This document shows, piece after piece, positions 3,320 through 59,723 of a DNA stretch of 64,000 bases (position 1 is the first letter of the stretch; each line of letters starts with the position of its first letter). Origin of the DNA: a virus. Lineage: Duplodnaviria > Heunggongvirae > Uroviricota > Caudoviricetes. The DNA lies in IMG/VR virus record IMGVR_UViG_2029527006_000005; one strand, written 5' to 3'. The notes under the pieces are model-generated. The model did not search any database. It was not told where the DNA came from and saw only the letters and a program-made list of their open reading frames with translations. The position numbers were made by a program, and so were the translations under genes.

Positions 3320-3407
3320 TGGTGGGAGAGGCAAGGACTCGAACCTTGCATTGTCACTAGGACTAAGACACTGGAGATGCCTATGTATACCTTTCCATCA
3401 CTCTCCC
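3320..3407 (-). tRNA. tRNA, class II length (88 nt), isotype undetermined
   Basis: reverse complement has acceptor GGGAGAG/CTCTCCC, T-arm CAAGG-TTCGAGT-CCTTG and encoded CCA; anticodon arm could not be folded by eye. Confidence 0.5.
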
Positions 3408-9090: not shown

Positions 9091-9183
9091 TGGAGGTAGA
9101 TGTGAGATTTGAACTCACGAGCCGCTATTAACGGCTGCCAATTTTCAAGATTGGTGCAATAAGCCAGCCTCTGCCAATCTACC
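9091..9183 (-). tRNA. tRNA-Ser (anticodon UGA)
   Basis: acceptor GGTAGAT/ATCTACC, anticodon stem ACCAAT/ATTGG with loop CTTGAAA, long variable arm CAGCCGTTAATAGCGGCTCG, T-arm GTGAG-TTCAAAT-CTCAC, CCA. Confidence 0.75.
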
Positions 9184-26200: not shown

Positions 26201-26282
26201 TGGTCCGGGCGGCAAGATTCGAACTCGCATACTCCAATTACTCGATTAACGACGGGTTAGAAGCCCGTTGAGATACGCCCGG
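26201..26282 (-). ncRNA. tRNA-like gene (aberrant; possibly Arg-UCU derived)
   Basis: acceptor CCGGGCG/CGCCCGG, T-arm GCGAG-TTCGAAT-CTTGC, CCA, hairpin ACGGG-CTTCTAA-CCCGT, but no recognisable D-arm; its 5' end coincides with the predicted TSS of promoter copy 5. Confidence 0.4.
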
Positions 26283-28945: not shown

Positions 28946-29320
28946 TTAGTCGTCTGGGTGACCGTAAATTAGACGTAAGTTACCTTTCGCATCAAAGTAA
29001 CGGGTTACTACCCCTTTGCGGTCGCCTTGATTACGTTCCCAATTAATTTGAGTAATCTTCTCCCCATTAGGGCAAGTATAGAACTTATTACCAGTACGTT
29101 CTTCAGTATTCAAAGAACAAGTCTTCATAAGTTCTAGGGCTTCAGCGTACAAGCCAGTATCGTTATGTTGTGGTTCAGATGCTTTGTTAGCACGTCTTGC
29201 TTGCTCAACAAGTACATCGTTTGGTGCAGAGACATTAATAATGTAATGAATGCCATTACCAGTAATCCACAACATTAACATAAAGAATACAGCCAAACCA
29301 CTATTACGTTCAAGTCTCAT
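28946..29320 (-). CDS. signal-anchored/secreted protein (124 aa)
   Basis: N-terminal hydrophobic segment LAVFFMLMLWITG. Confidence 0.45.
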   Translation of the reverse strand: MRLERNSGLAVFFMLMLWITGNGIHYIINVSAPNDVLVEQARRANKASEPQHNDTGLYAEALELMKTCSLNTEERTGNKFYTCPNGEKITQINWERNQGDRKGVVTRYFDAKGNLRLIYGHPDD

Positions 29321-29760
29321 TAATAAACCCTCACACGTTTGAGTGCCTTAAGTTCCTTAGTAGTAGGGAATACCACTAAGCCAGTATTGGTTAAACCGTC
29401 GAAGAAATTAATCCCGAAGTCATAGATAGCAAACGCATCCACTCCTTCATCTTTCAACTTCGACTTGACCTTCATCATATCACCTTCGTCTTTTAAACGC
29501 AAGACAATTTTACGACGACCGCTATCAAACCACGTTTGGAACTCTGCAAGTTCTTCTTGGGTCGCTTCAGTACTGCGATGATTCCAAACAAGATCCATCG
29601 CATGTCCTACCTGTGCAGCTAGCTTACCTTCAGGCATCTCCAAATCTTTTCTTAGGAGGATGAATACCTTCCCTTGAATTTCCGATTTTTCAATTCCTGC
29701 CATTTGAGCCAACTCTCGTGTCTCCGGTCTTTGTGTGCTTGATCCCGTTCTTTGATCCAT
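29320..29760 (-). CDS. PTH2-family peptidyl-tRNA hydrolase-like protein
   Basis: KVFILLRKDLEMPEGKLAAQVGHA and VDAFAIYDFG...GLVVFPT resemble the archaeal/eukaryotic Pth2 fold; the N-terminal 19 codons overlap the upstream ORF so the true start may be the internal Met (MAGIEK...). Confidence 0.55.
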   Translation of the reverse strand: MDQRTGSSTQRPETRELAQMAGIEKSEIQGKVFILLRKDLEMPEGKLAAQVGHAMDLVWNHRSTEATQEELAEFQTWFDSGRRKIVLRLKDEGDMMKVKSKLKDEGVDAFAIYDFGINFFDGLTNTGLVVFPTTKELKALKRVRVY

Positions 29761-30197
29761 TTGTATACGTCCTCAATGAAGTAATCTTTTAAGGCTTCCA
29801 TCTTAACATAATCTTCATGTAAAGGGAAGAACTTATCTTGTATTGTACTCTCCATGAAGTGAAATCCTTCATCGATGGCAAATGGGTACATTTTCTCACG
29901 CTCAACGCCCGGAATAAATTCAGGCTCTTTGAACATCTTACATAGCGTCATCTCTTCAAAGTTATAACGCAACCCTTCACGGCGAGTACCGTTAGATATT
30001 TTCAAATCTCTCTGGAAAGTAATAATTTTATTGTTAGTATCCACAATAACACGCAAACTCTCATACATAATACCACGATAAAAGTAATTCCCTTGATTGT
30101 TAGTAGTACGTTTCATTGAGTTCGGTGTTATGTTACGAAGTAATGCTTTCGCAGTACTAGGAGTACCACGAAAAATTGCAAATTCATTATCCTGCAT
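29652..30197 (-). CDS. EEE-FFQ-ST family protein (divergent)
   Basis: FAIDEGFHFMESTIQDKFFPLHEDY. Confidence 0.45.
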   Translation of the reverse strand: MQDNEFAIFRGTPSTAKALLRNITPNSMKRTTNNQGNYFYRGIMYESLRVIVDTNNKIITFQRDLKISNGTRREGLRYNFEEMTLCKMFKEPEFIPGVEREKMYPFAIDEGFHFMESTIQDKFFPLHEDYVKMEALKDYFIEDVYKWIKERDQAHKDRRHESWLKWQELKNRKFKGRYSSS

Positions 30198-30633: not shown

Positions 30634-30692
30634 ATTTTCTCCAAAAATTTATTCACAACCAATTATAGCAGATAAAAAAATAAAGTCAACGC

Positions 30693-31494: not shown

Positions 31495-31528
31495 ACTTAA
31501 AATAAAAGCCCCCTCATTTGAGGGAGCT
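31495..31528 (-). terminator. rho-independent terminator
   Basis: hairpin AGCTCCCTCA-AAT-GAGGGGGCT followed by TTTTATTTT on the minus strand; directly after the SPFH gene stop. Confidence 0.6.
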
Positions 31529-31538
31529 TGTTTAGTTG

Positions 31539-32375
31539 TTACTGTCCTGCTGGAACATTAACAAATGGTACTGCTTGACTACCCATCATGGTTGGTAGTT
31601 TACCGTCCCATTTTTCGATAGCTTTTAGGTCTTTAACATCTGCGTTTTTACGTAGTGCATCACCTAGGATTTCAATACTTTTCGCTTCTGCTTCAGCTAG
31701 TAGTAGTTTAGCATCTGCTTCACCTTTTGCTTGTGAACGTGCCATATCTGCTTCAGCATTCTTCTGTAGTACTTCTTGTTGACGTTGTAGTGTCTTCTGG
31801 TTCGCAGTTACTTTTGCGTTAATGGAAGCATCAACTGATGGTGGATATGCTGGTTTACCCATCCAAGATAGACTTAGAATTTGAATACCTACTGGACCCA
31901 TTTCAGCTTGAATATCTGCTAGTGCATCGTCTAGTAGTTTAGCTTTGCCACCATCAATGAACTGATCAGTACTCATTTTACTACCAAGACGTGTTAGTGA
32001 GTCACTAATCTTCTGACGTAGGTCAGTATCAGTAATATCATCTACACCTTTACGGTAAGTCTGGAATACAGTTTTAACTTTGTTTGCATCCACTTTATAT
32101 GACACACCGATTTTATAACCGATTGTAGTACCATCACGCATCTGGAATACAAATTCTTCGTCGTAGGATTTCATTTGTTTGAACATTGGGAACACATAAA
32201 GATCAGTGTTAATACCAGTCCATACACGGCCTACGCCAACTACTTCACCCACACCCTTGTCATCGCCTAGTTTGTTAACTTTAATACCAACAAAACCCGG
32301 TTCAACACGATCACAGCCTGTTAGAGCTAGTGCACCAAAAACAAGACCAACTGCTAGAATAATTTTCTTGAACAT
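31539..32375 (-). CDS. SPFH/band-7 (prohibitin/HflK-like) lipoprotein
   Basis: lipobox LALTGC; SPFH-like core followed by an Ala/Glu/Lys/Gln-rich coiled coil (ADMARSQAKGEADAKLLLAEAEAKSIE). Confidence 0.75.
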   Translation of the reverse strand: MFKKIILAVGLVFGALALTGCDRVEPGFVGIKVNKLGDDKGVGEVVGVGRVWTGINTDLYVFPMFKQMKSYDEEFVFQMRDGTTIGYKIGVSYKVDANKVKTVFQTYRKGVDDITDTDLRQKISDSLTRLGSKMSTDQFIDGGKAKLLDDALADIQAEMGPVGIQILSLSWMGKPAYPPSVDASINAKVTANQKTLQRQQEVLQKNAEADMARSQAKGEADAKLLLAEAEAKSIEILGDALRKNADVKDLKAIEKWDGKLPTMMGSQAVPFVNVPAGQ

Positions 32376-32681: not shown

Positions 32682-32758
32682 TGGTGCTAACGGTAGGACT
32701 TGAACCCACAAAATGCCTCATTACAAGTGAGGTGCTGTACCAATTGAGCCACGTCAGC
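32682..32758 (-). tRNA. tRNA-Thr (anticodon UGU)
   Basis: acceptor GCTGACG/CGTTAGC, D-arm GCTCAATTGGTACAGC, anticodon stem CCTCA/TGAGG with loop CTTGTAA, T-arm GTGGG-TTCAAGT-CCTAC, CCA. Confidence 0.75.
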
Positions 32759-35271: not shown

Positions 35272-35362
<91 letters not shown>

Positions 35363-37350: not shown

Positions 37351-37579
37351 TGTTTTCTTCCTCTAATTGTCTTGCAATATCTTCTTCGTACTTGCGTTCT
37401 TCCATTTCTTCAACGGATTGCATGATACTAGAGCAAATCTCATAGAGTTGATCATATGCACGGCGTTCGTATTGGTTTAGTTCATCAGGATCGAAATCCT
37501 CTTCCCACATACGTTCTTTGATTTCTTCCATTGCGGTAACTGTATTTTCGAACATACAGTATGACATGTTAATTCCCAT
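37334..37579 (-). CDS. hypothetical acidic protein (81 aa)
   Basis: ORF track. Confidence 0.45.
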   Translation of the reverse strand: MGINMSYCMFENTVTAMEEIKERMWEEDFDPDELNQYERRAYDQLYEICSSIMQSVEEMEERKYEEDIARQLEEENNDSEE

Positions 37580-38543
37580 GTGTCAAGTCCTCTGCTAGTT
37601 TAAGTATTCTTTCTTTTTTGGCAATCTTATCTACCCATTCAGCAGGGATACCATCAAGACCATAGAAAGCACCTGCAATCTGTCCTGTAATCGCCGCCAC
37701 TGTATCAGCATCATCACCTAAGTTTGCTGCAAGTAGGATTGCATCTTTGAAGTTTTTAGTACTATAGAAGCACCACAAAGCAGCTTCTAGTGAATCAAGC
37801 ACATATCCAGTAGAATGAATATCATCGCGTTCTTTATTCTTATATGATCCACCCATGATAGTTAGTATTTCGCGTGAAGTTACAATACCTTCCCAGACTT
37901 TTTCCGGGAATGAAAGTAATGAACGTTTTGACTGTTCTTCATCAGGTTCAACCCCATCCAATTCAATACGACCATTAATTGCACGGTTAAGTAGTACTGC
38001 AAACGCAATACACGATTCACGACATAAAGTACTAGCATGTGTGGTTGAACTGCTTAAATCAGCAGCATATACTAATGTAGAAAAGTCTTCAACTGTATTA
38101 GTATTGTAATAGATTGGAATTGGAGCCAAACGCATAAGACTACCATTTCCAGAATCTAGAAAATGTTCATTATTACGCAAAATTCCATCACGTATGTAAT
38201 TCATCAATGCATTACGTGTTGTCCCACCAATATCAAAACAATGACCATTAGAACTGCAATACCCATTTTTGTACCAATCAACATAATTTATTAGTTGTTC
38301 TTCTGACCATTTGATACTATCTTGAATATCATTTACATCGTAGTTTTCTAGTAAAGCATAGCCTAAGCACAATGCCATACTTGTATCATCAGTCCATTGG
38401 CCGGGATCTAATTGAAAAGGTCCACCACCAACCATATCAGTGATGTTCTCGTAATCCCGTTCTTTGAACTCTAAGGTAGTCCCAACTGCATCACCTACTG
38501 CTAATCCCATTAGGCAACCTTGCGTTCGATTTAGTTTACTCAT
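37569..38543 (-). CDS. ADP-ribosylglycohydrolase (ARH/DraG family)
   Basis: GCLMGLAVGDAVGTTLEF, GNGSLMRLAPI and LGDDADTVAAITGQIAGAFYG are hallmark ARH motifs. Confidence 0.8.
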   Translation of the reverse strand: MSKLNRTQGCLMGLAVGDAVGTTLEFKERDYENITDMVGGGPFQLDPGQWTDDTSMALCLGYALLENYDVNDIQDSIKWSEEQLINYVDWYKNGYCSSNGHCFDIGGTTRNALMNYIRDGILRNNEHFLDSGNGSLMRLAPIPIYYNTNTVEDFSTLVYAADLSSSTTHASTLCRESCIAFAVLLNRAINGRIELDGVEPDEEQSKRSLLSFPEKVWEGIVTSREILTIMGGSYKNKERDDIHSTGYVLDSLEAALWCFYSTKNFKDAILLAANLGDDADTVAAITGQIAGAFYGLDGIPAEWVDKIAKKERILKLAEDLTHGN

Positions 38544-44316: not shown

Positions 44317-45000
44317 TCAACTTTTTTTCTTTTGTAGGCAGTACGAAATTTGTAGGGCTTCACGAGCCGCATCATAGAGCGGGTGATGCAACTCTAAGTT
44401 AACAAAGCCGTGTTCTACGCGTGTTGTAGTCTCAAACCGTCCTAGATAGTCTTTGACGATGCTATCCATTTCTTCCCGCTCTGCATCACTTAGTAGGTCT
44501 TTGATACTTCTGGCGTTCTGTGGAGCATTGTATTTCCACATTTTAGCATTACCATACATAAGTCTGTGGTTAGCTTGAAGAATGCTACAATCGAAGTGGC
44601 AGCCATTACCCCAAATCTTACCATCATATTCATCGTACTCACCATTAATGAACCAATCAACGGTTACTGATGGATCGACTAGTTTATGTGTTTGGTACGG
44701 TTGAGTACTGAGCTTGAGTTCTGCCATTTCTAATGGGAAAGATTTCTTCATTTCATGTAGTGCACGAGGATATTCTTCTGCACACATATCAAACCAGAAT
44801 GACATACATGAAGCAGAGATCTTAAGACCTTTGTCAATCTGTGGTTGGAGTGGCATTTGAACATACATCCATTCCAACTGATAGGTTTCTGGCACTTCTG
44901 GCACTTTAACTAATGCGTAGTTAGGAATGGCGATATCATACCCGCTATTCTCTGGTACTGCAAGAGATTCAATATCAATCGCCACATCACGTCTAATCAT
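44317..45000 (-). CDS. dexA: DEDD (DnaQ-like) 3'-5' exonuclease, DexA-like
   Basis: Exo I motif VAIDIESLAV; 227 aa, the same length as T4 exonuclease A. Confidence 0.55.
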   Translation of the reverse strand: MIRRDVAIDIESLAVPENSGYDIAIPNYALVKVPEVPETYQLEWMYVQMPLQPQIDKGLKISASCMSFWFDMCAEEYPRALHEMKKSFPLEMAELKLSTQPYQTHKLVDPSVTVDWFINGEYDEYDGKIWGNGCHFDCSILQANHRLMYGNAKMWKYNAPQNARSIKDLLSDAEREEMDSIVKDYLGRFETTTRVEHGFVNLELHHPLYDAAREALQISYCLQKKKS

Positions 45001-45231: not shown

Positions 45232-45270
45232 AACAAAAAGGAGGCATAACGCCTCCTTTATTTTTATTAT
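45232..45270. terminator. bidirectional rho-independent terminator
   Basis: hairpin AGGAGGC-ATAAC-GCCTCCT with T-tracts on both strands. Confidence 0.6.
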
Positions 45271-46466
45271 TTCTTGTGAGTTTTATCAGCAATCTCTAGT
45301 AGAGAGTTTTTCAAATCTTGATTCATTTTTTCCATTTCAAGTTTTGCTTTCTCACGTTCTGCTGCACCGCTCTGCTCAACCATAATGGTATCGTTAATAC
45401 CTTTGAGCATAGTGTTCTGTACTTTACGTAGTGTATCCAAATCTACCACTCCACGTTGGTTAGCTTTAGCGGAATCAACCATGTTCTTAGCTACGGTATC
45501 TGCGTTATTAGATAGTAGTAGGTTAGTCTGGTCATCAATCTTCGCACCAAGCTCGTTATCTTTACGCTGTGCGTCACTGATTAGACCTAGGCTCATCTGG
45601 GTCTTCCACGCTGGAATAGTCGTGGTGATTAGTGTCTGGTACTTCTCATGTGTGTTGGTGTTTACCTTACGCATGGACATAATCTGTGGAGCCATTAGTT
45701 GAGATAGTGTAATCAAGCGACGTACCTTATCTGCCTGTTTGTCAAGTGCTTCGACAATTAGTTTCTGTTCTTCGAATTTCTCAACTTCAATGCTGTCATC
45801 TTGACGCATAGTATTAAGAATTTCTTCTTGTGGTGCTTTAACTTCTTCAATGCTAGCAAGTGCCGTTTTTAGCTCTTTGAGATGGTCGATGTTAGCAGTG
45901 TAAACACTTTCCAACCAACGACCTTCATCTTCCATACGCACTACGCCACCATCAAGAGTCTTAACGATTTCTTGGATTTGATCATAGCTGGTATTAAGCT
46001 GGTCTGTTACCTGACGTTTTGCGTCACGGAAGAGACTCATCACTTTACCCCAAACGCCCTTCTGTGGTGTACCGAGTGATTCAATGTCAACGCTGCGGGT
46101 TAACGCAAGAATGTTGTTAACACTTTCACCGAACTCACCGCTATCAGCGACTTTAACACGGTTTAGGATCTGGTCGTTGAGTACAGAAATGCTTGCACCA
46201 GCATCCATACCAAACGTGTGAATGTTAGAAACAGTTAGTGCAACGCTTTCGCCTTTAGCAGAAGTCAGTGCTGGAAGCTGTTTTTCAGTCTGTTCGAAAA
46301 CATCATTCTGTACTACGTCTTTCTCTTTAACTTTAGTCGCTTTCTTTGTTGCTGGCTTACGAGTACGAGTTTTAGTAGCTGGAGTGATATCTTTCTCTGA
46401 CATTATGAATTCCTCATGTTTGTTTAATAAGTAGTGCTGCTTGTCTATGTGAACATTATACAGCAC
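45267..46466 (-). CDS. TelA/KlaA-like toxic-anion-resistance family protein
   Basis: about 390 aa, predicted all-helical, with TelA-like segments (e.g. HLKELKTALASIEE, ADKVRRLITLSQLMAPQIMSMRKVN); a basic N-terminal extension rich in K/T/R. Confidence 0.55.
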   Translation of the reverse strand: MLYNVHIDKQHYLLNKHEEFIMSEKDITPATKTRTRKPATKKATKVKEKDVVQNDVFEQTEKQLPALTSAKGESVALTVSNIHTFGMDAGASISVLNDQILNRVKVADSGEFGESVNNILALTRSVDIESLGTPQKGVWGKVMSLFRDAKRQVTDQLNTSYDQIQEIVKTLDGGVVRMEDEGRWLESVYTANIDHLKELKTALASIEEVKAPQEEILNTMRQDDSIEVEKFEEQKLIVEALDKQADKVRRLITLSQLMAPQIMSMRKVNTNTHEKYQTLITTTIPAWKTQMSLGLISDAQRKDNELGAKIDDQTNLLLSNNADTVAKNMVDSAKANQRGVVDLDTLRKVQNTMLKGINDTIMVEQSGAAEREKAKLEMEKMNQDLKNSLLEIADKTHKK

Positions 46467-50375: not shown

Positions 50376-50984
50376 AGACATTTCAGTAACTACACTGTGT
50401 ACAATTCCAGCCCAATTATCCACAAATTTGAAATCAGTACGTACCTTGTACTTCTCATTGTGTGGGCGTTTCAACATAATACCGGGAATACCCAATACCA
50501 ATGCAGTTTCGATATTCATAATGTAATCGTCTACTAAACAAACTACATCATACTGTGCTTGAAGCTGTGAAAGTACACCACGTTTAGATTCATACATTTC
50601 TACAATGTGAATCTCATCAAATACATTAGGGAATACGTTATGAATATTCACCTTCCGAAGTACTTCACCATGACCAAATGTTCCTGACTTAGTTAGTACT
50701 GCAAATACTGCATCCGGGTATGTATGACGCAATGCACATAGTAAAGACTGTGCACCTTCCAGTGGTTTTAGTAGACCAAATTCAAATGAAGTTTGGTTAA
50801 ATTGTTTGATTACTTCTTGTACTTGGACTGAACTTAGTCCCAACCATTTTTCCAACCCATATTCATGTGGGTATTCAGTTTCAGTTACAATATCAAATTT
50901 ATCTTTAACGTACTCACGTAGACCACCTAAGTGGTCTAGTAGGATTTCATCGCAGTCAAATACAATTACTTTCTTTTTTGTCAT
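50364..50984 (-). CDS. HAD-superfamily phosphatase / 5'(3')-deoxyribonucleotidase-like
   Basis: motif I VIVFDCDEIL (DxDx[TV]); about 200 aa. Confidence 0.5.
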   Translation of the reverse strand: MTKKKVIVFDCDEILLDHLGGLREYVKDKFDIVTETEYPHEYGLEKWLGLSSVQVQEVIKQFNQTSFEFGLLKPLEGAQSLLCALRHTYPDAVFAVLTKSGTFGHGEVLRKVNIHNVFPNVFDEIHIVEMYESKRGVLSQLQAQYDVVCLVDDYIMNIETALVLGIPGIMLKRPHNEKYKVRTDFKFVDNWAGIVHSVVTEMSKGE

Positions 50985-51940
50985 TACCAGTTTCCTGTGC
51001 AGATTAGATCAATTTCACATAGCAATGCACTTAGGTTCAATTCGCGGTCCGATACAGACGCTTGCTTGACCATTGCATCACGGATTTTAACGATAATCTT
51101 CATACGAGTGATTTCGTCATCAGAGAACAATTTAGCATTCTGGGAGAGGTATGTAAAGAACCCATCCATTTCATCTTCTGGGATGTTCTGGACGATGAGT
51201 TCACGCATCTCACGAATACTGCCGTTCTTTAGTGCATCAATAATAAGGGAACGATAGTTAGCTGTGCTATCCACGCTATCCTCAAGTTTTAGTAGCTTAC
51301 CATCAACGATGCTGCTTTGCAAGGTGTTTAGTGTTTTACGGAAATCAGGATAGGTTGCATTGATGTATTTGTCAACTAAAGCTAGTGATTCTTCAGTACT
51401 CAAATCTACTTCTTCAGCTAGTAGGACGTTAATAATACGGGTCATGTATTCTTCACGGTCATGCTTTTCGATAGTGATGTTTTGTACACGAGATAGAATA
51501 GGTTTTAGAATCTTGTGTGGTTCGTTAGAAGTTAGAATGAAACGTGCGTTATCCGCATAGTCTTCCATTGTACGCTTTAATGATGCTTGTGCCTTTTGGT
51601 TCATTTGTTCCATTTCTTCTAGAACAAAGATACGGTACTTACCACTTGGTGTTAGACGTGCAGATGGTTCGATTTTATCACGAACTGCATCAATACCTTC
51701 ATCTGACATGTTAAGGATCATAACATCAAAACGGTCGATAATACCATTGGCTTCTAGTCCGTTAATTAGAACGTTAATTGCGGAAGTCTTACCAGTACCT
51801 GCTGGACCGAAGAAACCAATGTGTGGAATATCACCAGTACGAACCCACTCTTCCATCTTTGCTTGGAAAGCTGGGTTTTTGAATACGTAGTTTTCCATAT
51901 CTTGTGGGCGATACTTTTCTGTCCATAGTGCATTACTCAT
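50984..51940 (-). CDS. gp44: clamp-loader ATPase subunit (T4 gp44-like, AAA+ RFC family)
   Basis: WTEKYRPQ, Walker A GPAGTGKTS, SRC-like SRV motif, arginine finger region; 318 aa. Confidence 0.85.
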   Translation of the reverse strand: MSNALWTEKYRPQDMENYVFKNPAFQAKMEEWVRTGDIPHIGFFGPAGTGKTSAINVLINGLEANGIIDRFDVMILNMSDEGIDAVRDKIEPSARLTPSGKYRIFVLEEMEQMNQKAQASLKRTMEDYADNARFILTSNEPHKILKPILSRVQNITIEKHDREEYMTRIINVLLAEEVDLSTEESLALVDKYINATYPDFRKTLNTLQSSIVDGKLLKLEDSVDSTANYRSLIIDALKNGSIREMRELIVQNIPEDEMDGFFTYLSQNAKLFSDDEITRMKIIVKIRDAMVKQASVSDRELNLSALLCEIDLICTGNW

Positions 51941-56275: not shown

Positions 56276-57697
56276 TTAGTCTTTTTCTGCTTTTGGTGTG
56301 CAGTCCATCTTACGTAGTTTCTTGAGTTCATCAGCATAAATGGTCCAGATCTCTTCTGGATTATCTAGAATGTCCTGATACTTATTCATTAAGTCTAGAG
56401 CTTCTTGAATCTCTTCTAGTGTCTTATTGTAGTTCTCTTGTGTCCAACGATAAGAAGCATAGTTCACGATGTTTTGGATATTATCATCGGTAGCTTGAAT
56501 ATCATCATTGAGTACTGTAACAAAATCAACTAGCTCTTGACGGTTTTGGAAGTCTTTAATCTTCGTTACCATCTCATTCTCAAAACACTTAGCTACTAGT
56601 GCTTTATAACGTACTTCTGCTTCTGCTTTAGCCAATAGATGCTCATAACGTTTCACGTAATATTTGAAACGGAAATGAACAAAGTCATGGATTAAGTCAG
56701 AAGTGTTATTGTAGACTTTTACACGACCGTTCTCACCGAGTACTACAAGTGATTGGGTCAATTTACTACTCAAACCAAAGTACTTGATTACATCACTTTC
56801 TACCCATTTAGCACTTGTGCCACGTGGTAGTTTGATAGTAATATCAATCGTATCAGTACTGTCATTGTCGTAGTCACGGATTTCACCGCTGTCCTGCATA
56901 GCAATTAGTTTCTCAATAAAAGAATCAATCTTCACACGAGGTGGTAGACCTAGAATCTTAACTGAACTTGCATCAATTACTTCTGCACGACCATAGAATT
57001 CATATTTGTTTTCATCGATTTCACCAACAATATCACTAGCACCAAGTGACACACAATAAGGAGTCATTTTCTGTAGTGGCTTTTTGTTAATTACGCGTAA
57101 GCAGTTGTCGATAATATCTTCGATGCGATAAGGTAGAATCAAACTCTTATAACCTACAGACATACTATCATTACCAAATAGTGATAATGGGATAATAGGT
57201 AGGAAGTGAGTTGGTTCCATTGTTGTACCATCATAGTTTTCTTGCATTGGTACAATGTCCATATCTTGTAGTACTAACGCTTCTGTTACTGCGGTACGTT
57301 TAACGTAAGTATAACGAGCACTAGCTGGAGTACTGTTAACCTGTGTACCGAAACCACCACGTTTACCGATGAGTGGATAGTTGTTAGCTACTGGACTTGC
57401 AAGGTTCTGTAGTGTTCCTGAAGCGGAAGTGTCACCGTGAAGGTAGATACCATCACTAATCATACGTCCTGCTGCGGATACAGTTTTAATCTCACCTGAG
57501 ATTTTACTTAGCGTGAAGATAGCCTTACGCTGTGAGCTTTTCAATCCATCAATACCGGGGATTGCACGGTCGAGAGTACTGACAGAATATTCCAATGATG
57601 ATTGGTTGATATATTCAGAACTCACGTATTTTAGTAGTGTTAGCGTTGCGTTTTCAATAGCATTACTTGCAGCCGCTTTTTTAGTTGATTTAGCCAT
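56276..57697 (-). CDS. gp52: DNA topoisomerase II medium subunit (T4 gp52-like, GyrA-like)
   Basis: TopoIIA breakage-reunion region with active-site Tyr context; 473 aa. Confidence 0.85.
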   Translation of the reverse strand: MAKSTKKAAASNAIENATLTLLKYVSSEYINQSSLEYSVSTLDRAIPGIDGLKSSQRKAIFTLSKISGEIKTVSAAGRMISDGIYLHGDTSASGTLQNLASPVANNYPLIGKRGGFGTQVNSTPASARYTYVKRTAVTEALVLQDMDIVPMQENYDGTTMEPTHFLPIIPLSLFGNDSMSVGYKSLILPYRIEDIIDNCLRVINKKPLQKMTPYCVSLGASDIVGEIDENKYEFYGRAEVIDASSVKILGLPPRVKIDSFIEKLIAMQDSGEIRDYDNDSTDTIDITIKLPRGTSAKWVESDVIKYFGLSSKLTQSLVVLGENGRVKVYNNTSDLIHDFVHFRFKYYVKRYEHLLAKAEAEVRYKALVAKCFENEMVTKIKDFQNRQELVDFVTVLNDDIQATDDNIQNIVNYASYRWTQENYNKTLEEIQEALDLMNKYQDILDNPEEIWTIYADELKKLRKMDCTPKAEKD

Positions 57698-57749
57698 TCC
57701 TTTGCCTCTTTGTTATTTCGGGGTACTTCCTGTACCCCTTCTTTAGTAC

Positions 57750-59723
57750 TTAGTCTTTCATCCATTCTTTACGGTCATCAGCACGTTCTTTGTTGAAGAT
57801 TAGGTCAAGGGTTGGACCCAAGTTACCATCATCAACAATAGCTACTGCTACGCCGTTAGTTAGTGCATCACGGAAGTTACTCTTCTCTAGAGTACCCAAT
57901 CCTTTAGCACGAGTTGCTTTCCAACCTTTCCATTCTTCTGGGTTATATTCTTCTACGTTGTGACCGTAGTAATAACGACTTTCTTTTCCTTTCTCCAAAA
58001 TAATAAAAGGAGTTTTGAAAATATACACGAATGGGTTTTCGGCATCTTCGAACAATTCAGGCCAGAACTTATATAGGAAGTTCACGACTAGTGCACCGAT
58101 GTTTTTACCATCCTCATCTTCGTCAGCACAGATATATAGTTTACCGTAGTTTAATTCATCACGGATTGCTTTCTGTCCGGGGATCAAGTTGATACTAGCC
58201 ATAATGTCTTTTAGGGCATCACTATCCATTAAGTCTTTGGTCTTTTCAGTACCGTTGACGTTCTTGATCTTACCACGAAGTGGGAGTATACCATGTTTCT
58301 TAGAATCACGTGCTGCTGACATGTTACTTACCGCTGAATCACCTTCTGCAATTAGAAGAATACATTCAGTACGGTTAGAACCAGTTGCATCAAGTAACTT
58401 AGCTACTTTAGCTTTTAGAAGTTTCTTAGCTAGACGACGATCTTCATCTGCGTCCTTCTTATTAGTACGTGCAGCAGTACGCTCAAAGATTTCTTCAACC
58501 CAATCTTTGTTTTTCTTCACTAGTTCATCAAAGAACTCAGGAGTCATAGCTTTTTTAACTGGAGCAATAACGTTCTCATTAGTTAGCTTAGATTTAATCT
58601 GTGAGTTGAACGATGGTGCGTTCATAGTAGTCACGTTATAAATCATTAGACCTTCTTCAATGTCTCCACGGTTAGGAGTCATTTTGCGTTTCTTAGCTTC
58701 TTTTTCAAGTGCAGTACTAACGCCTAGGGCAAAGAACTTTTTAAATGTTTCAAGGTGAGTACCGCCATCAAACGCAGGAGCGTTGTTAACAATACCTTGC
58801 ATGTGGAAGTTGGTATTCATATCTTTTACTGCGTTTGGCACAATATAGAAAGTACTGTCAAATCCAATGCTATCATCTTTAACATTTAGGTTCATCATTT
58901 TGTTTGCACCAAAAAGAGTTTTCTCTGGTGTCGCCTTAGTAGCAATCTTCTTGCCATTAAGGATAATCTTGTACGCTGGATTAGCAGAAGCAATCTCTTT
59001 CAAGATACTGTAAACTAAATCCATTGGGAGGTTGCGATTCTTGAACACTTCTGGACTTAGCGTGAAGCTAATTGATGTACCAGTTTTATCCGCTTGAACT
59101 TTGCGAATTGTAGGTTCTTGAATATCTAGTTCAGGGAACATAATAGTACCTTCCTTGAACTTTTGGTTGAACTTATAAATTCCATCATAGCCATCATTAG
59201 ATGCTTGGGTCTTATAAGGACGACCGTTGCGGTGAATCTCTAGCTCTGCTTTCGAACTCACACACATTGTAATGGAACCACCTAGACCGTTCTGACCGAT
59301 TGTACCTTCACGTTTTGAATCGTCAAAGTTACGACCAGTTTTGGTTTCAGTTAGTACCATAGTACACAAATGTACATCGAACTCTGGTACGTAATCAATT
59401 GGAATACCACGACCGTTATCACTTATTACAAATGATAAATCGTCTTCGTTGTAATCAATTTTTAGTACAGGATCTTTTGTACCTGCTTTTTTAAACTCAT
59501 CAAGAGAGTTATCAATGATCTCACGGAACGCTGTTATTAGTGCTGGAACCCATTCTAGGTTCACAACGTTATAACCGTCTTCTTTGAAAAGTACCACTTG
59601 GTGTTCATGAACAGAACGTGAACCTAAGTACATTTCAGTACGAATGCGAGCATGTTGATAGTCGTTTAGTCGCTGAACGTCATGTTCAGAAAGCACGGAT
59701 GAGGATTTCTTTTCTTTTGCCAT
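57750..59723 (-). CDS. gp39: DNA topoisomerase II large subunit (T4 gp39 fused with gp60-like region; GyrB-like ATPase)
   Basis: GHKL ATPase motifs (EIIDNSLDE, DNGRGIP, GLGGS), Toprim region; 657 aa implies a 39+60 fusion as in many T4 relatives. Confidence 0.85.
   Translation of the reverse strand: MAKEKKSSSVLSEHDVQRLNDYQHARIRTEMYLGSRSVHEHQVVLFKEDGYNVVNLEWVPALITAFREIIDNSLDEFKKAGTKDPVLKIDYNEDDLSFVISDNGRGIPIDYVPEFDVHLCTMVLTETKTGRNFDDSKREGTIGQNGLGGSITMCVSSKAELEIHRNGRPYKTQASNDGYDGIYKFNQKFKEGTIMFPELDIQEPTIRKVQADKTGTSISFTLSPEVFKNRNLPMDLVYSILKEIASANPAYKIILNGKKIATKATPEKTLFGANKMMNLNVKDDSIGFDSTFYIVPNAVKDMNTNFHMQGIVNNAPAFDGGTHLETFKKFFALGVSTALEKEAKKRKMTPNRGDIEEGLMIYNVTTMNAPSFNSQIKSKLTNENVIAPVKKAMTPEFFDELVKKNKDWVEEIFERTAARTNKKDADEDRRLAKKLLKAKVAKLLDATGSNRTECILLIAEGDSAVSNMSAARDSKKHGILPLRGKIKNVNGTEKTKDLMDSDALKDIMASINLIPGQKAIRDELNYGKLYICADEDEDGKNIGALVVNFLYKFWPELFEDAENPFVYIFKTPFIILEKGKESRYYYGHNVEEYNPEEWKGWKATRAKGLGTLEKSNFRDALTNGVAVAIVDDGNLGPTLDLIFNKERADDRKEWMKD

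What the first reader, a model, noticed from the sequence alone, without database searches (positions are those of the whole stretch)
29320..29760. PTH2-type peptidyl-tRNA hydrolase in a tRNA-rich phage
The ORF has the Pth2 signature (KVFILLRKDLEMPEGKLAAQVGHA ... VFPT) and is of the archaeal/eukaryotic type rather than bacterial Pth. Together with the large tRNA set it suggests the phage manipulates the translation apparatus. It could rescue stalled peptidyl-tRNAs, or counter host defences that cleave or modify tRNAs.
Basis: partly seen in the sequence, partly recalled or inferred. Interest (0 to 1): 0.5.

Follow-up and report, generated by a model that had tools for sequence, protein, structure and literature searches.

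The report
Jumbo-phage Pth2 peptidyl-tRNA hydrolase gene
The ORF is a real, conserved phage gene for an archaeal/eukaryotic-type (Pth2) peptidyl-tRNA hydrolase, which probably frees tRNAs trapped on aborted peptides during infection; the same gene has been annotated and discussed in related giant phages since 2012-2013, so the finding is correct but ordinary.

Summary
Confirmed. A 146-aa ORF lies on the minus strand at 29320..29760; gene callers prefer a 127-aa version starting at Met20 (29703). It matches Pfam PTH2 (E 6.9e-19, 68.6 bits against a cut-off of 23) and has no hit to bacterial Pth1. An AlphaFold model (pLDDT 94.3) superposes only on solved Pth2 structures (S. solfataricus 1xty: TM 0.86, rmsd 1.6 Å). 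The catalytic Lys and Asp (K46, D114) and the other family-invariant residues are kept. dN/dS against a 93%-identical homologue is 0.08.

The window is syntenic with RaK2/GAP32/Munch-type jumbo phages (about 350 kb). Their orthologues (41-61% identity) are already labelled peptidyl-tRNA hydrolase and were discussed in the RaK2 paper (2013) and the Iyer et al. jumbo-phage review (2021). The window carries 10-12 tRNA genes.

The most likely function is recycling of dropped-off peptidyl-tRNA, which complements the phage tRNA supply. A counter-defence role is possible but untested.

There is one unexplained feature. The whole jumbo-phage clade replaces the otherwise invariant Thr of the D-x-G-x-T motif with Asn (N118), and the protein scores below NCBIfam's Pth2 equivalog cut-offs.

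Verdict: new member of a known kind; low interest.

The parts
29320..29760 (-). Longest ORF of the Pth2 gene (146 aa, Met1 to TAA).
   Evidence: JGI calls exactly this 146-aa product (P0019). The Munch orthologue is annotated at the equivalent long start (148 aa).
29320..29703 (-). Alternative 127-aa product starting at Met20. This Met is conserved in the Munch orthologue.
   Evidence: P0001 (127 aa, 100% identical) is the form called in NCBI WGS AGFS01 and Logan contigs. fENko-Kae01 annotates the equivalent 129-aa form.
29353..29670 (-). PTH2 domain (aa 31-136 of the 146-aa ORF).
   Evidence: Pfam PF01981 envelope. The AF2 model gives beta-alpha-alpha-beta-alpha-beta-beta, pLDDT 94.3. Fold match to 1xty: TMq 0.86, rmsd 1.6 Å.
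29623..29625 (-). Codon AAG for K46, the equivalent of the catalytic Lys18 of S. solfataricus Pth2.
   Evidence: Gap-free HMMER alignment to 1xty. Invariant in 110/110 aligned sequences and in 267/269 fetched proteins. The catalytic role of Lys18 is from my own knowledge of Fromant et al. 2005.
29419..29421 (-). Codon GAC for D114, the equivalent of the catalytic Asp86 of S. solfataricus Pth2 and, by inferred position, Asp174 of yeast Pth2.
   Evidence: Alignment to 1xty. Invariant in 110/110 and 268/269. Yeast Pth2(D174A) is hydrolase-dead (PMC9892010); its positional equivalence to D114 is inferred from domain offsets, not aligned here.
29407..29409 (-). Codon AAT for N118. Asn stands where canonical Pth2 has an invariant Thr (T90 of S. 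solfataricus Pth2) in the D-x-G-x-T motif.
   Evidence: Thr occurs in 84/84 canonical sequences and Asn in 24/26 of the jumbo-phage clade. Overall counts are T 219, N 47, S 2, K 1.
29770..29774 (-). Shine-Dalgarno-like GAGGA, 9 nt upstream of the Met1 ATG.
   Evidence: Read from the sequence. The 44 nt following this ATG show 0 differences from a homologue that differs at 13% of sites overall.
29652..30197 (-). Upstream co-directional gene (181 aa, PHROG 22160, unknown function). Its 3' end overlaps the Pth2 ORF by 109 nt (Met1 start) or 52 nt (Met20 start).
   Evidence: The same overlap is present in Munch. In the last ~12 codons, substitutions are synonymous in the Pth2 frame and non-synonymous in this frame.
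28946..29320 (-). Downstream gene (124 aa, PHROG 19950 'membrane protein'). Its ATG overlaps the Pth2 stop (TAATG), implying translational coupling.
   Evidence: It is conserved only in the Munch subgroup (66%) and not in GAP32, K64-1 or XaC1 (12-23%), so it is not a conserved partner.
30662..30689 (-). Candidate sigma-70-type promoter (TTGACT, 16 nt, TG-TATAAT; 11/12 matches). It sits in the intergenic gap upstream of the gene run that includes Pth2.
   Evidence: This is a consensus match only; the total number of promoter-like sites in the region is not above the shuffled expectation.
32682..32758 (-). tRNA-Thr(UGU), the nearest upstream tRNA gene (2.9 kb from Pth2). It is syntenic with the tRNA-Thr of Munch and fENko-Kae01.
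26204..26282 (-). tRNA gene 3 kb downstream of Pth2.
   Evidence: Rfam RF00005, 35.1 bits against a gathering score of 29. Not called by ARAGORN.

Best explanation
The ORF encodes a small, soluble, catalytically active Pth2-type peptidyl-tRNA hydrolase of a RaK2/GAP32/Munch-like jumbo myophage.

Inferred mechanism. The gene is expressed inside a run of small co-directional genes interspersed with phage tRNA genes. [quoted passage not shown] This returns free tRNA to the pool. It adds capacity to the host's single essential Pth1 while the phage translates several hundred, mostly short, ORFs. It therefore acts together with the phage tRNA genes to prevent tRNA starvation.

Shown here: family membership, fold, retention of the catalytic Lys and Asp, purifying selection, and conservation across the phage clade.

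Inferred, not shown: enzymatic activity, timing of expression, and the physiological benefit.
For: - Family: Pfam PTH2, E 6.9e-19, far above cut-off. PDB sequence matches are only to Pth2/Bit1.
- Fold: AF2 model pLDDT 94.3, pTM 0.87. Its 14 significant PDB matches are all Pth2; 1xty gives TMq 0.86, TMt 0.90, rmsd 1.6 Å.
- Residues: K46, Q50, H53, W77, K84, D114 and T126 are invariant across 110 phage, archaeal and other PTH2 proteins. The Asp equivalent is needed for hydrolase activity in yeast Pth2 (D174A, PMC9892010).
- Selection: dN/dS 0.08.
- Conservation: orthologues in 44 phage records, nearly all jumbo phages, in the same syntenic slot in Munch and fENko-Kae01.
- Not structural: the fENko-Kae01 record carries no 'identified with LC-MS/MS analysis' note for this protein, whereas many of its neighbours carry one. 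This fits an intracellular enzyme.
- Physiology: phage gene expression (lambda int, bar minigenes) causes peptidyl-tRNA accumulation. Extra Pth or extra tRNA each relieves the resulting block of translation (PMC2490762). This gives a direct rationale for a phage carrying both tRNAs and a Pth.
- From my own knowledge: archaeal Pth2 complements E. coli pth(ts) (Rosas-Sandoval et al. 2002; Fromant et al. 2003), so the fold works in an enterobacterial cytoplasm.
Against: - No phage Pth2 has been assayed in the literature I could search.
- The clade replaces the family-invariant Thr of D-x-G-x-T with Asn and changes the following residues as a block, from T-E-L-P-P to N-F-F-D-G.
- The protein falls below both NCBIfam Pth2 equivalog cut-offs: 65.3 against 126 and 60.4 against 82 bits. 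Identical substrate and chemistry therefore cannot be assumed.
- Linkage to tRNA genes is not universal. K64-1/RaK2 and phiM12 have no tRNA within 5 kb of their Pth2.
Confidence: 0.7

Rival explanations
1. Counter-defence enzyme. The Pth2 mainly undoes host attacks on the tRNA pool. It could deacylate the N-acetyl-aminoacyl-tRNAs made by GNAT toxins (TacT/AtaT/ItaT type). It could also strip peptides from tRNAs cut by anticodon nucleases, so that phage RNA-repair enzymes and ribosome rescue can proceed. This rival overlaps with the best explanation: the chemistry is the same and only the selective reason differs.
For: Iyer et al. propose exactly the cleaved-tRNA and ribosome-rescue role for jumbo-phage PTH2, alongside phage RNA-repair genes (PMC7824862). 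RaK2 encodes a CCA-adding enzyme, PNK and RNA ligase (PMC3622015). Host Pth reverses TacT acetylation of aminoacyl-tRNA (PMC9241777). The window also carries an ADP-ribosylglycohydrolase, a plausible counter-defence gene, 8 kb away.
Against: No PADLOC match, and no defence or anti-defence signature in the neighbouring genes. No RNA ligase, PNK or CCA-adding enzyme was found among the ORFs scanned, which were those of at least 220 aa plus the genes flanking Pth2. The immediate neighbours have no assignable function; PHROGs gives only a generic 'membrane protein' label. No experimental link between any Pth2 and phage defence was found in the searchable literature.
Confidence: 0.2
2. Specificity-shifted Pth2 paralogue. 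The clade-wide change from T-E-L-P-P to N-F-F-D-G next to the catalytic Asp retargets the enzyme. Possible new targets are a subset of tRNAs (for example the phage's own), a different acyl group, or another ester substrate. It would then not be a functional equivalent of cellular Pth2.
For: Asn replaces Thr in 24/26 clade members against 0/84 canonical sequences; overall N 47, T 219. Scores fall below the NCBIfam equivalog cut-offs. The change is conserved under strong purifying selection, so it is not decay.
Against: All other invariant residues and the whole fold are retained. Asn and Thr are both small polar hydrogen-bonding residues. Intermediate relatives keep Thr while sharing the clade's other motifs (GHGVD, RRKI), which suggests gradual drift rather than a functional jump.
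Confidence: 0.08
3. Non-catalytic protein. It would be a pseudoenzyme or a binding module, analogous to the hydrolase-independent roles of yeast Pth2 and human Bit1.
For: Yeast Pth2 has a hydrolase-independent function (PMC9892010). One conserved active-site residue differs from the canonical one.
Against: The catalytic Lys and Asp and five further invariant positions are strictly kept across the clade. Pseudoenzymes normally lose these. The protein has no membrane anchor and no extra domain.
Confidence: 0.02

Closest known systems
Pth2 of Rak2-like jumbo phages: Salmonella phage Munch CPT_Munch_390 / AZU98332.1, Klebsiella phage fENko-Kae01 ENKO_393, Cronobacter phage GAP32_382, Klebsiella phage RaK2 ORF188 / K64-1 gp231, Pectobacterium phage CBB, Serratia phage BF
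   Same: Orthologous gene, 41-61% identical. Same syntenic slot in Munch and fENko-Kae01: tRNA-Ser, 417-aa ORF, tRNA-Thr, SPFH gene, then Pth2. Same Asn-for-Thr motif. These genes are already annotated as peptidyl-tRNA hydrolase and discussed in PMC3622015 and PMC7824862.
   Different: The phage itself is not in the GenBank phage collection: megablast of 4 kb found nothing. The best protein identity there is 61%. The exact protein exists only in metagenome or WGS contigs of about 360 kb, unnamed or generically named.
Archaeal Pth2 (S. solfataricus 1XTY, P. horikoshii 1WN2/2D3K, M. jannaschii 2ZV3, A. fulgidus 3ERJ, T. acidophilum 1RLK)
   Same: Same fold, with TM up to 0.86-0.90 and rmsd 1.6-3.3 Å. 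Same size, single domain. Same Lys and Asp (K18 and D86 in S. solfataricus numbering) and the G-K-x-A-A-Q-x-x-H motif.
   Different: Only 22-28% identical. Thr90 is replaced by Asn and T-E-L-P-P by N-F-F-D-G. There is a 4-residue insertion in the helix 1-2 region and an N-terminal leader of 11 aa (Met20 start) or 30 aa (Met1 start). It scores below the NCBIfam equivalog cut-offs. Its setting is bacterial and viral, not archaeal.
Eukaryotic Pth2 / PTRH2 (human Bit1 1Q7S; yeast Pth2)
   Same: Same catalytic domain. The catalytic Asp has been shown to be required in yeast.
   Different: The eukaryotic proteins carry an N-terminal mitochondrial outer-membrane anchor and have protein-interaction roles. 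The phage protein has only a short hydrophilic leader.
Bacterial Pth1 (E. coli Pth, PF01195)
   Same: Presumed same reaction (EC 3.1.1.29) and same cellular substrate pool.
   Different: Unrelated fold and catalytic residues (His20, Asn10 and Asp93 in Pth1). The ORF has no match to Pth1 models.
PTH2-fold proteins of other viruses (Agrobacterium phage Atu_ph07, Sinorhizobium phiM12/phiN3, Mycobacterium phage Myrna, Caulobacter CcrBL9, Klosneuvirus, Yasminevirus, Pithovirus, Fowlpox virus)
   Same: Same fold, found by structure search in BFVD with E from 1e-7 to 3e-3. This shows that PTH2 is acquired recurrently by large viruses.
   Different: 12-26% identity and different genomic neighbourhoods. 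For example, phiM12 Pth2 lies near a RelA/SpoT-family gene and has no tRNA nearby.

Membership tests
PTH2 family (Pfam PF01981) | Profile match above the curated gathering score over most of the domain | tested here: met
   68.6 bits against 23, E 6.9e-19, profile positions 2-103 of 115.
PTH2 family (Pfam PF01981) | Pth2 alpha/beta fold: mixed beta-sheet flanked by two pairs of helices | tested here: met
   AF2 model pLDDT 94.3. The top 14 Foldseek PDB hits are all Pth2; 1xty gives TMq 0.86, TMt 0.90, rmsd 1.6 Å. This is a predicted structure, not a solved one.
PTH2 family (Pfam PF01981) | Catalytic Lys (K18) and Asp (D86), S. solfataricus numbering | tested here: met
   K46 and D114 align without gaps to K18 and D86 of 1xty and are invariant in 110/110 sequences. 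Their catalytic role comes from my own knowledge (Fromant et al. 2005) and from yeast D174A (PMC9892010).
PTH2 family (Pfam PF01981) | Invariant Thr of the D-x-G-x-T motif (T90 in S. solfataricus) | tested here: not met
   N118 stands in its place. Thr is found in 84/84 canonical sequences and Asn in 24/26 of the jumbo-phage clade. Overall: T 219, N 47.
Pth2 equivalog (NCBIfam NF003314 / TIGR00283) | Score above the curated equivalog cut-off, which licenses transfer of the exact function | tested here: not met
   65.3 bits against a cut-off of 126, and 60.4 against 82. The protein is a divergent subfamily. It belongs to the family, but its function cannot be transferred as an equivalog by NCBI's criterion.
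Pth2 equivalog (NCBIfam NF003314 / TIGR00283) | Peptidyl-tRNA / N-acyl-aminoacyl-tRNA ester hydrolase activity (EC 3.1.1.29); complementation of E. coli pth(ts) | not testable with these tools
   No experimental data on any phage Pth2 were found.
Pth2 equivalog (NCBIfam NF003314 / TIGR00283) | Homodimeric state, as in the archaeal enzymes | not tested
   Only a monomer was modelled.
Bacterial Pth1 (PF01195) | Profile match / Pth1 fold with a catalytic His | tested here: not met
   PTH2 was the only Pfam family reported at E <= 1. No Pth1 structure appears among the PDB sequence or fold matches.
Known anti-phage defence components (PADLOC-DB) | Match to any defence-system protein model | tested here: not met
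   No match at E <= 0.01 for Pth2 or for three neighbouring genes.

The most novel reading that the evidence does not exclude
In the Rak2-like jumbo-phage Pth2 clade, the otherwise invariant active-site Thr is replaced by Asn and the adjacent loop is remodelled (N-F-F-D-G). This clade may be a specificity-shifted enzyme kept for conflict with the host rather than a plain housekeeping Pth. It might preferentially clear toxin-modified tRNAs (N-acetylated aminoacyl-tRNAs) or nuclease-damaged peptidyl-tRNAs. Alternatively it might serve the phage's own unusual tRNAs, such as the conserved tRNA-Ser(ACU), which host Pth1 may handle poorly.
Probability: 0.12. Interest if true: 0.6.

Novelty: new member of a known kind. 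Interest (0 to 1): 0.2.

Why it matters
It matters little on its own. It confirms that another uncultivated jumbo phage of about 360 kb carries the Pth2 gene typical of its lineage, next to its tRNA genes.

The broader open question is why large viruses repeatedly acquire the archaeal/eukaryotic Pth2 rather than the host-type Pth1, and no phage Pth2 has been assayed.

The Asn-for-Thr active-site variant documented here gives a simple, testable handle: compare wild type with N118T. This clade infects tractable hosts (Salmonella, Klebsiella, E. coli, Cronobacter). If the enzyme proved to be a counter-defence factor against tRNA-modifying toxins, that would be a new class of anti-defence activity.

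Tried and rejected
1. Nucleotide search of 4 kb around the gene against GenBank phages found no match. The phage can only be placed by protein similarity.

2. A conserved Pth2 + small membrane protein gene pair. The TAATG stop/start overlap suggested a partner. The downstream gene is conserved only in the Munch subgroup (66%) and is unrelated in GAP32, K64-1 and XaC1 (12-23%). Rejected.

3. A second 'peptidyl-tRNA hydrolase' nearby. Munch annotates CPT_Munch_385 as one. The window's syntenic counterpart (31539..32375) is an SPFH/Band 7 lipoprotein (Pfam 2e-23), so that label is probably a misannotation.

4. Universal physical linkage of Pth2 with tRNA genes. It holds in this window, Munch, fENko-Kae01, GAP32 and XaC1, but not in K64-1/RaK2 or phiM12. 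Rejected as a general rule.

5. Giant multi-repeat 'PTH2' proteins in the representative search (P0129, 2694 aa, 14 stretches; also P0138 and P0157). P0129 looks like an insect-allergen-type tandem-repeat protein (judged by eye from its sequence; no family search was run), so the hit is spurious. P0138 and P0157 were not inspected.

6. Literature on Pth2 catalytic residues. The primary papers (Fromant 2005, Powers 2005, Shimizu 2008) are not held. The roles of K18 and D86 therefore rest on my own knowledge plus the yeast D174A result. I could not establish what is known about T90.

7. Start-codon resolution by comparing with the 93% homologue gave suggestive but not decisive evidence.

8. Inspecting active-site geometry in the model was not possible, because its coordinates are not exposed to scripts.
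Full report
**Observation**

The window has an ATG-to-TAA ORF of 146 aa on the minus strand at exactly 29320..29760. All neighbouring genes run in the same direction.

The ORF's stop overlaps the start of the next gene (TAATG). Its first 109 nt overlap the 3' end of the upstream 181-aa gene at 29652..30197.

**Family assignment**

- Pfam gives a single hit, PTH2 (PF01981), with E 6.9e-19 and 68.6 bits against a gathering score of 23, covering aa 31-136. No other family, including bacterial Pth1, appears at E <= 1.
- PHROGs places the protein in phrog_1866, which carries no functional label.
- A sequence search of the PDB finds only Pth2 proteins: P. horikoshii 1WN2, T. acidophilum 1RLK, A. fulgidus 1RZW/3ERJ, M. 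jannaschii 2ZV3, human Bit1 1Q7S, S. solfataricus 1XTY, and 24BT (deposited as 'peptidyl-tRNA hydrolase'). The best E-value is 1.1e-10, improving to 6.4e-18 with a profile of the phage clade.
- An AlphaFold2 model built on a 110-sequence alignment has mean pLDDT 94.3 and pTM 0.87, with a beta-alpha-alpha-beta-alpha-beta-beta order of elements.
- Foldseek against the PDB returns 14 matches at E <= 0.001, all of them Pth2 chains. The closest is 1XTY (TMq 0.86, TMt 0.90, rmsd 1.6 Å). The next hit has E 0.24.

The PTH2 assignment stands.

**Is it a real, functional gene?**

The identical 127-aa protein (from Met20) occurs on contigs of about 360 kb in NCBI WGS AGFS01 and in Logan assemblies. A 93%-identical homologue occurs on other contigs of about 361 kb.

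Between the window and that homologue, the Pth2 coding region has 29.8 synonymous and 12.2 non-synonymous differences, giving dN/dS = 0.08.

Across 110 aligned PTH2 proteins, the positions K46, Q50, H53, W77, K84, D114 and T126 (146-aa numbering) are invariant. They stay nearly so across 269 fetched proteins.

K46 and D114 align without gaps to Lys18 and Asp86 of S. solfataricus Pth2. From my own knowledge (Fromant et al. 2005), these are the residues shown by mutagenesis to be needed for catalysis. The yeast enzyme with the corresponding Asp mutated (D174A) is hydrolase-dead (PMC9892010). The equivalence of D174 to D114 is inferred from domain offsets; it was not aligned here.

**Start codon**

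Two starts are possible.

- Met1 (29760) has a GAGGA box 9 nt upstream. The 44 nt that follow it show no difference from the 93% homologue, against 13% divergence overall. This fits dual coding with the upstream gene.
- Met20 (29703) is the start chosen by the gene callers of NCBI/Logan and of fENko-Kae01, and it is conserved in Munch.

From about codon 26 onward, substitutions are synonymous in the Pth2 frame and non-synonymous in the upstream gene's frame. Pth2 is therefore the constrained frame there. Either start leaves the domain intact. I leave this open.

**Context**

Megablast of 4 kb finds nothing in the GenBank phage collection. tblastn finds the protein in 44 phage records, essentially all jumbo myophages of 345-380 kb:

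- Salmonella Munch/7t3/SE_PL/PHA46 and Klebsiella fENko-Kae01: 61% identity.
- Yersinia fHe-Yen9-04, Erwinia pEa_SNUABM phages, Serratia BF, Pectobacterium CBB, Cronobacter GAP32, E. coli A4/EJP2, Klebsiella RaK2/K64-1, Xanthomonas XbC2/XaC1: 37-48%.
- More distantly, Sinorhizobium phiM12-like phages and Salicola SCTP-2.

Gene order around the ORF is collinear with Munch and fENko-Kae01: tRNA-Ser, a 417-aa ORF, a 117-aa ORF, a 180-aa ORF, tRNA-Thr, a small ORF, an SPFH protein, four small ORFs, then Pth2 and a membrane protein.

Elsewhere the window encodes:

- topoisomerase II A and B subunits;
- a clamp loader;
- TelA;
- an ADP-ribosylglycohydrolase;
- an Rv2179c-like 3'-5' exoribonuclease.

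This makes it a replication/early-type region, not a structural one.

ARAGORN finds 11 tRNA genes in the window and Rfam finds 10 at gathering score, 9 in common. The nearest lie 2.9 kb upstream (tRNA-Thr) and 3 kb downstream of Pth2.

An 11/12 sigma-70-like promoter with an extended -10 sits in the gap at 30689..30662, two genes upstream. A strong terminator follows the SPFH gene at 31529..31506. These are pattern matches only.

**What is already known**

Many of these orthologues are annotated as 'peptidyl-tRNA hydrolase'. GAP32_382 carries an explicit note on PF01981 and P. horikoshii.

The RaK2 genome paper (2013) points out ORF188 as a Pth2 and remarks on the archaeal/eukaryotic distribution of the type. 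It discusses the gene together with the phage's tRNAs, CCA-adding enzyme, PNK and RNA ligase (PMC3622015).

Iyer et al. [quoted passage not shown] They propose that it hydrolyses peptidyl-tRNA linkages during ribosome rescue after tRNA cleavage, and they comment on its non-bacterial type (PMC7824862).

A structure search of viral models shows the fold in many other large viruses: Atu_ph07, phiN3, Myrna, CcrBL9, Klosneuvirus, Yasminevirus, Pithovirus and Fowlpox virus.

I found no experimental study of any phage Pth2.

**Most likely mechanism**

I take the protein to be an active peptidyl-tRNA hydrolase. It would cleave the ester between the nascent peptide (or an N-blocked amino acid) and A76 of tRNAs released from ribosomes, regenerating chargeable tRNA.

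The rationale is established bacterial physiology. Peptidyl-tRNA drop-off is frequent in early elongation and is cleared by Pth (PMC10192219, abstract). Phage lambda expression (the int gene, bar minigenes) causes peptidyl-tRNA accumulation and translation arrest when Pth is limiting. Either more Pth or more tRNA relieves this (PMC2490762).

A phage that must translate several hundred mostly short ORFs and that brings its own tRNAs would benefit from bringing a compact Pth as well. tRNA genes and Pth2 are then two routes to the same end, a sufficient pool of free tRNA.

From my own knowledge, archaeal Pth2 enzymes complement E. coli pth(ts), so the fold works in this cytoplasm. The enzymatic activity, the time of expression and the benefit are inferred, not shown.

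**Rivals**

- Counter-defence. The chemistry would be the same, but the selective reason would be to undo GNAT-toxin acetylation of aminoacyl-tRNA (host Pth does this for TacT; PMC9241777), or to process peptidyl-tRNAs damaged by anticodon nucleases (PMC7824862). Nothing in the neighbourhood supports or excludes this. There are no PADLOC hits, and the adjacent genes have no assignable function; PHROGs gives only a generic 'membrane protein' label.
- A specificity-shifted enzyme (see the next section).
- A non-catalytic protein. This is unlikely given the strictly retained catalytic residues.

**The one unexpected feature**

In canonical Pth2 the catalytic Asp is followed by an invariant motif, D-A-G-x-T-E-(L/V)-P-P. 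The Thr (T90 in S. solfataricus) is present in 84 of 84 non-clade sequences in my alignment.

In the Rak2-like jumbo-phage clade the motif is D-(F/Y/N)-G-x-N-F-F-D-G, with Asn in 24 of 26 members, including the window protein (N118, codon 29409..29407). Over all 269 short PTH2 proteins fetched, the counts are Thr 219, Asn 47, Ser 2 and Lys 1. Most of the Asn carriers are members of this clade or the window protein's own cluster. Four (P0132, P0153, P0195, P0246) are representative-library hits of unknown origin.

Somewhat more distant relatives share the clade's other motifs but keep Thr.

Consistent with this divergence, the protein scores 65.3 and 60.4 bits against NCBIfam's two Pth2 equivalog models, whose cut-offs are 126 and 82.

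The Asn is conserved under strong purifying selection, so it is a functional variant and not decay. Whether it alters chemistry or substrate range cannot be decided computationally here. I could not access the primary literature on the role of T90.

**Verdict**

The finding is correct in observation and in interpretation. It is a new member (61% identity to the nearest annotated protein) of an already annotated and discussed family of jumbo-phage Pth2 genes.

Interest is low (0.2). The residual interest lies in the untested biochemistry of viral Pth2 in general, and in the clade-specific Asn variant in particular.

Noticed in passing
window 35272..35362 (-); L003 14598..14688: The tRNA-Ser has the anticodon loop C-U-ACU-A-A, so its anticodon is ACU with an unmodified-looking A34, where bacteria normally use GCU for AGY codons. 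CCA is encoded in the gene. The same anticodon is present in Klebsiella phage fENko-Kae01. There one anticodon-stem pair is G-C instead of the window's G-U, a one-sided change that keeps the stem paired. The gene is therefore conserved.
   Followed up: partly
window 31539..32375 (-); L001 1348..2187: This 278-aa ORF has a lipoprotein-like signal and an SPFH/Band 7 domain (Pfam 2e-23). Its syntenic counterpart in Salmonella phage Munch (CPT_Munch_385) is labelled 'peptidyl-tRNA hydrolase' in GenBank, which looks like a misannotation. A strong terminator follows the gene at 31529..31506.
   Followed up: partly
window 37569..38543 (-): ADP-ribosylglycohydrolase (Pfam E 2e-70), about 8 kb from Pth2. 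It could reverse host ADP-ribosylating toxins. It is also annotated in fENko-Kae01.
   Followed up: no
window 29717..29760 (-): The Pth2 long ORF overlaps the upstream gene by 109 nt. The first 44 nt after the Met1 ATG are identical in a homologue that differs at 13% of sites overall, which suggests dual coding or an embedded translational signal. The same overlap exists in Munch.
   Followed up: partly
window 26204..26282 (-), 3320..3405 (-), 9091..9183 (-): The tRNA callers disagree. Rfam finds a tRNA at 26204..26282 (35 bits) that ARAGORN misses. ARAGORN calls an 86-nt tRNA-Gly at 3320..3405 and a 93-nt tRNA-Ser at 9091..9183 that do not reach Rfam's gathering score. These could be intron-containing or degenerate tRNAs.
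   Followed up: no
window 44317..45000 (-), 45267..46466 (-), 50984..51940 (-), 56276..59723 (-): An Rv2179c-like 3'-5' exoribonuclease, a TelA-family protein, a clamp-loader ATPase and split type II topoisomerase A and B subunits. This places the window in the replication and host-interaction part of the genome.
   Followed up: no
L004 3205..3957 (Sinorhizobium phage phiM12): In phiM12 the Pth2 gene lies about 1 kb downstream of a RelA/SpoT-family (small alarmone synthetase-like) gene. Given that toxic SAS enzymes pyrophosphorylate tRNA 3' ends, this is a possible tRNA-centred gene cluster.
   Followed up: no
protein P0129 (2694 aa), also P0138 and P0157: These long proteins scored well against Pth2 through 7-14 short stretches each. 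P0129 looks like an insect-allergen-type tandem-repeat protein (judged by eye from its sequence), so the hit is a repeat-summed false positive of the representative search. P0138 and P0157 were not inspected.
   Followed up: partly
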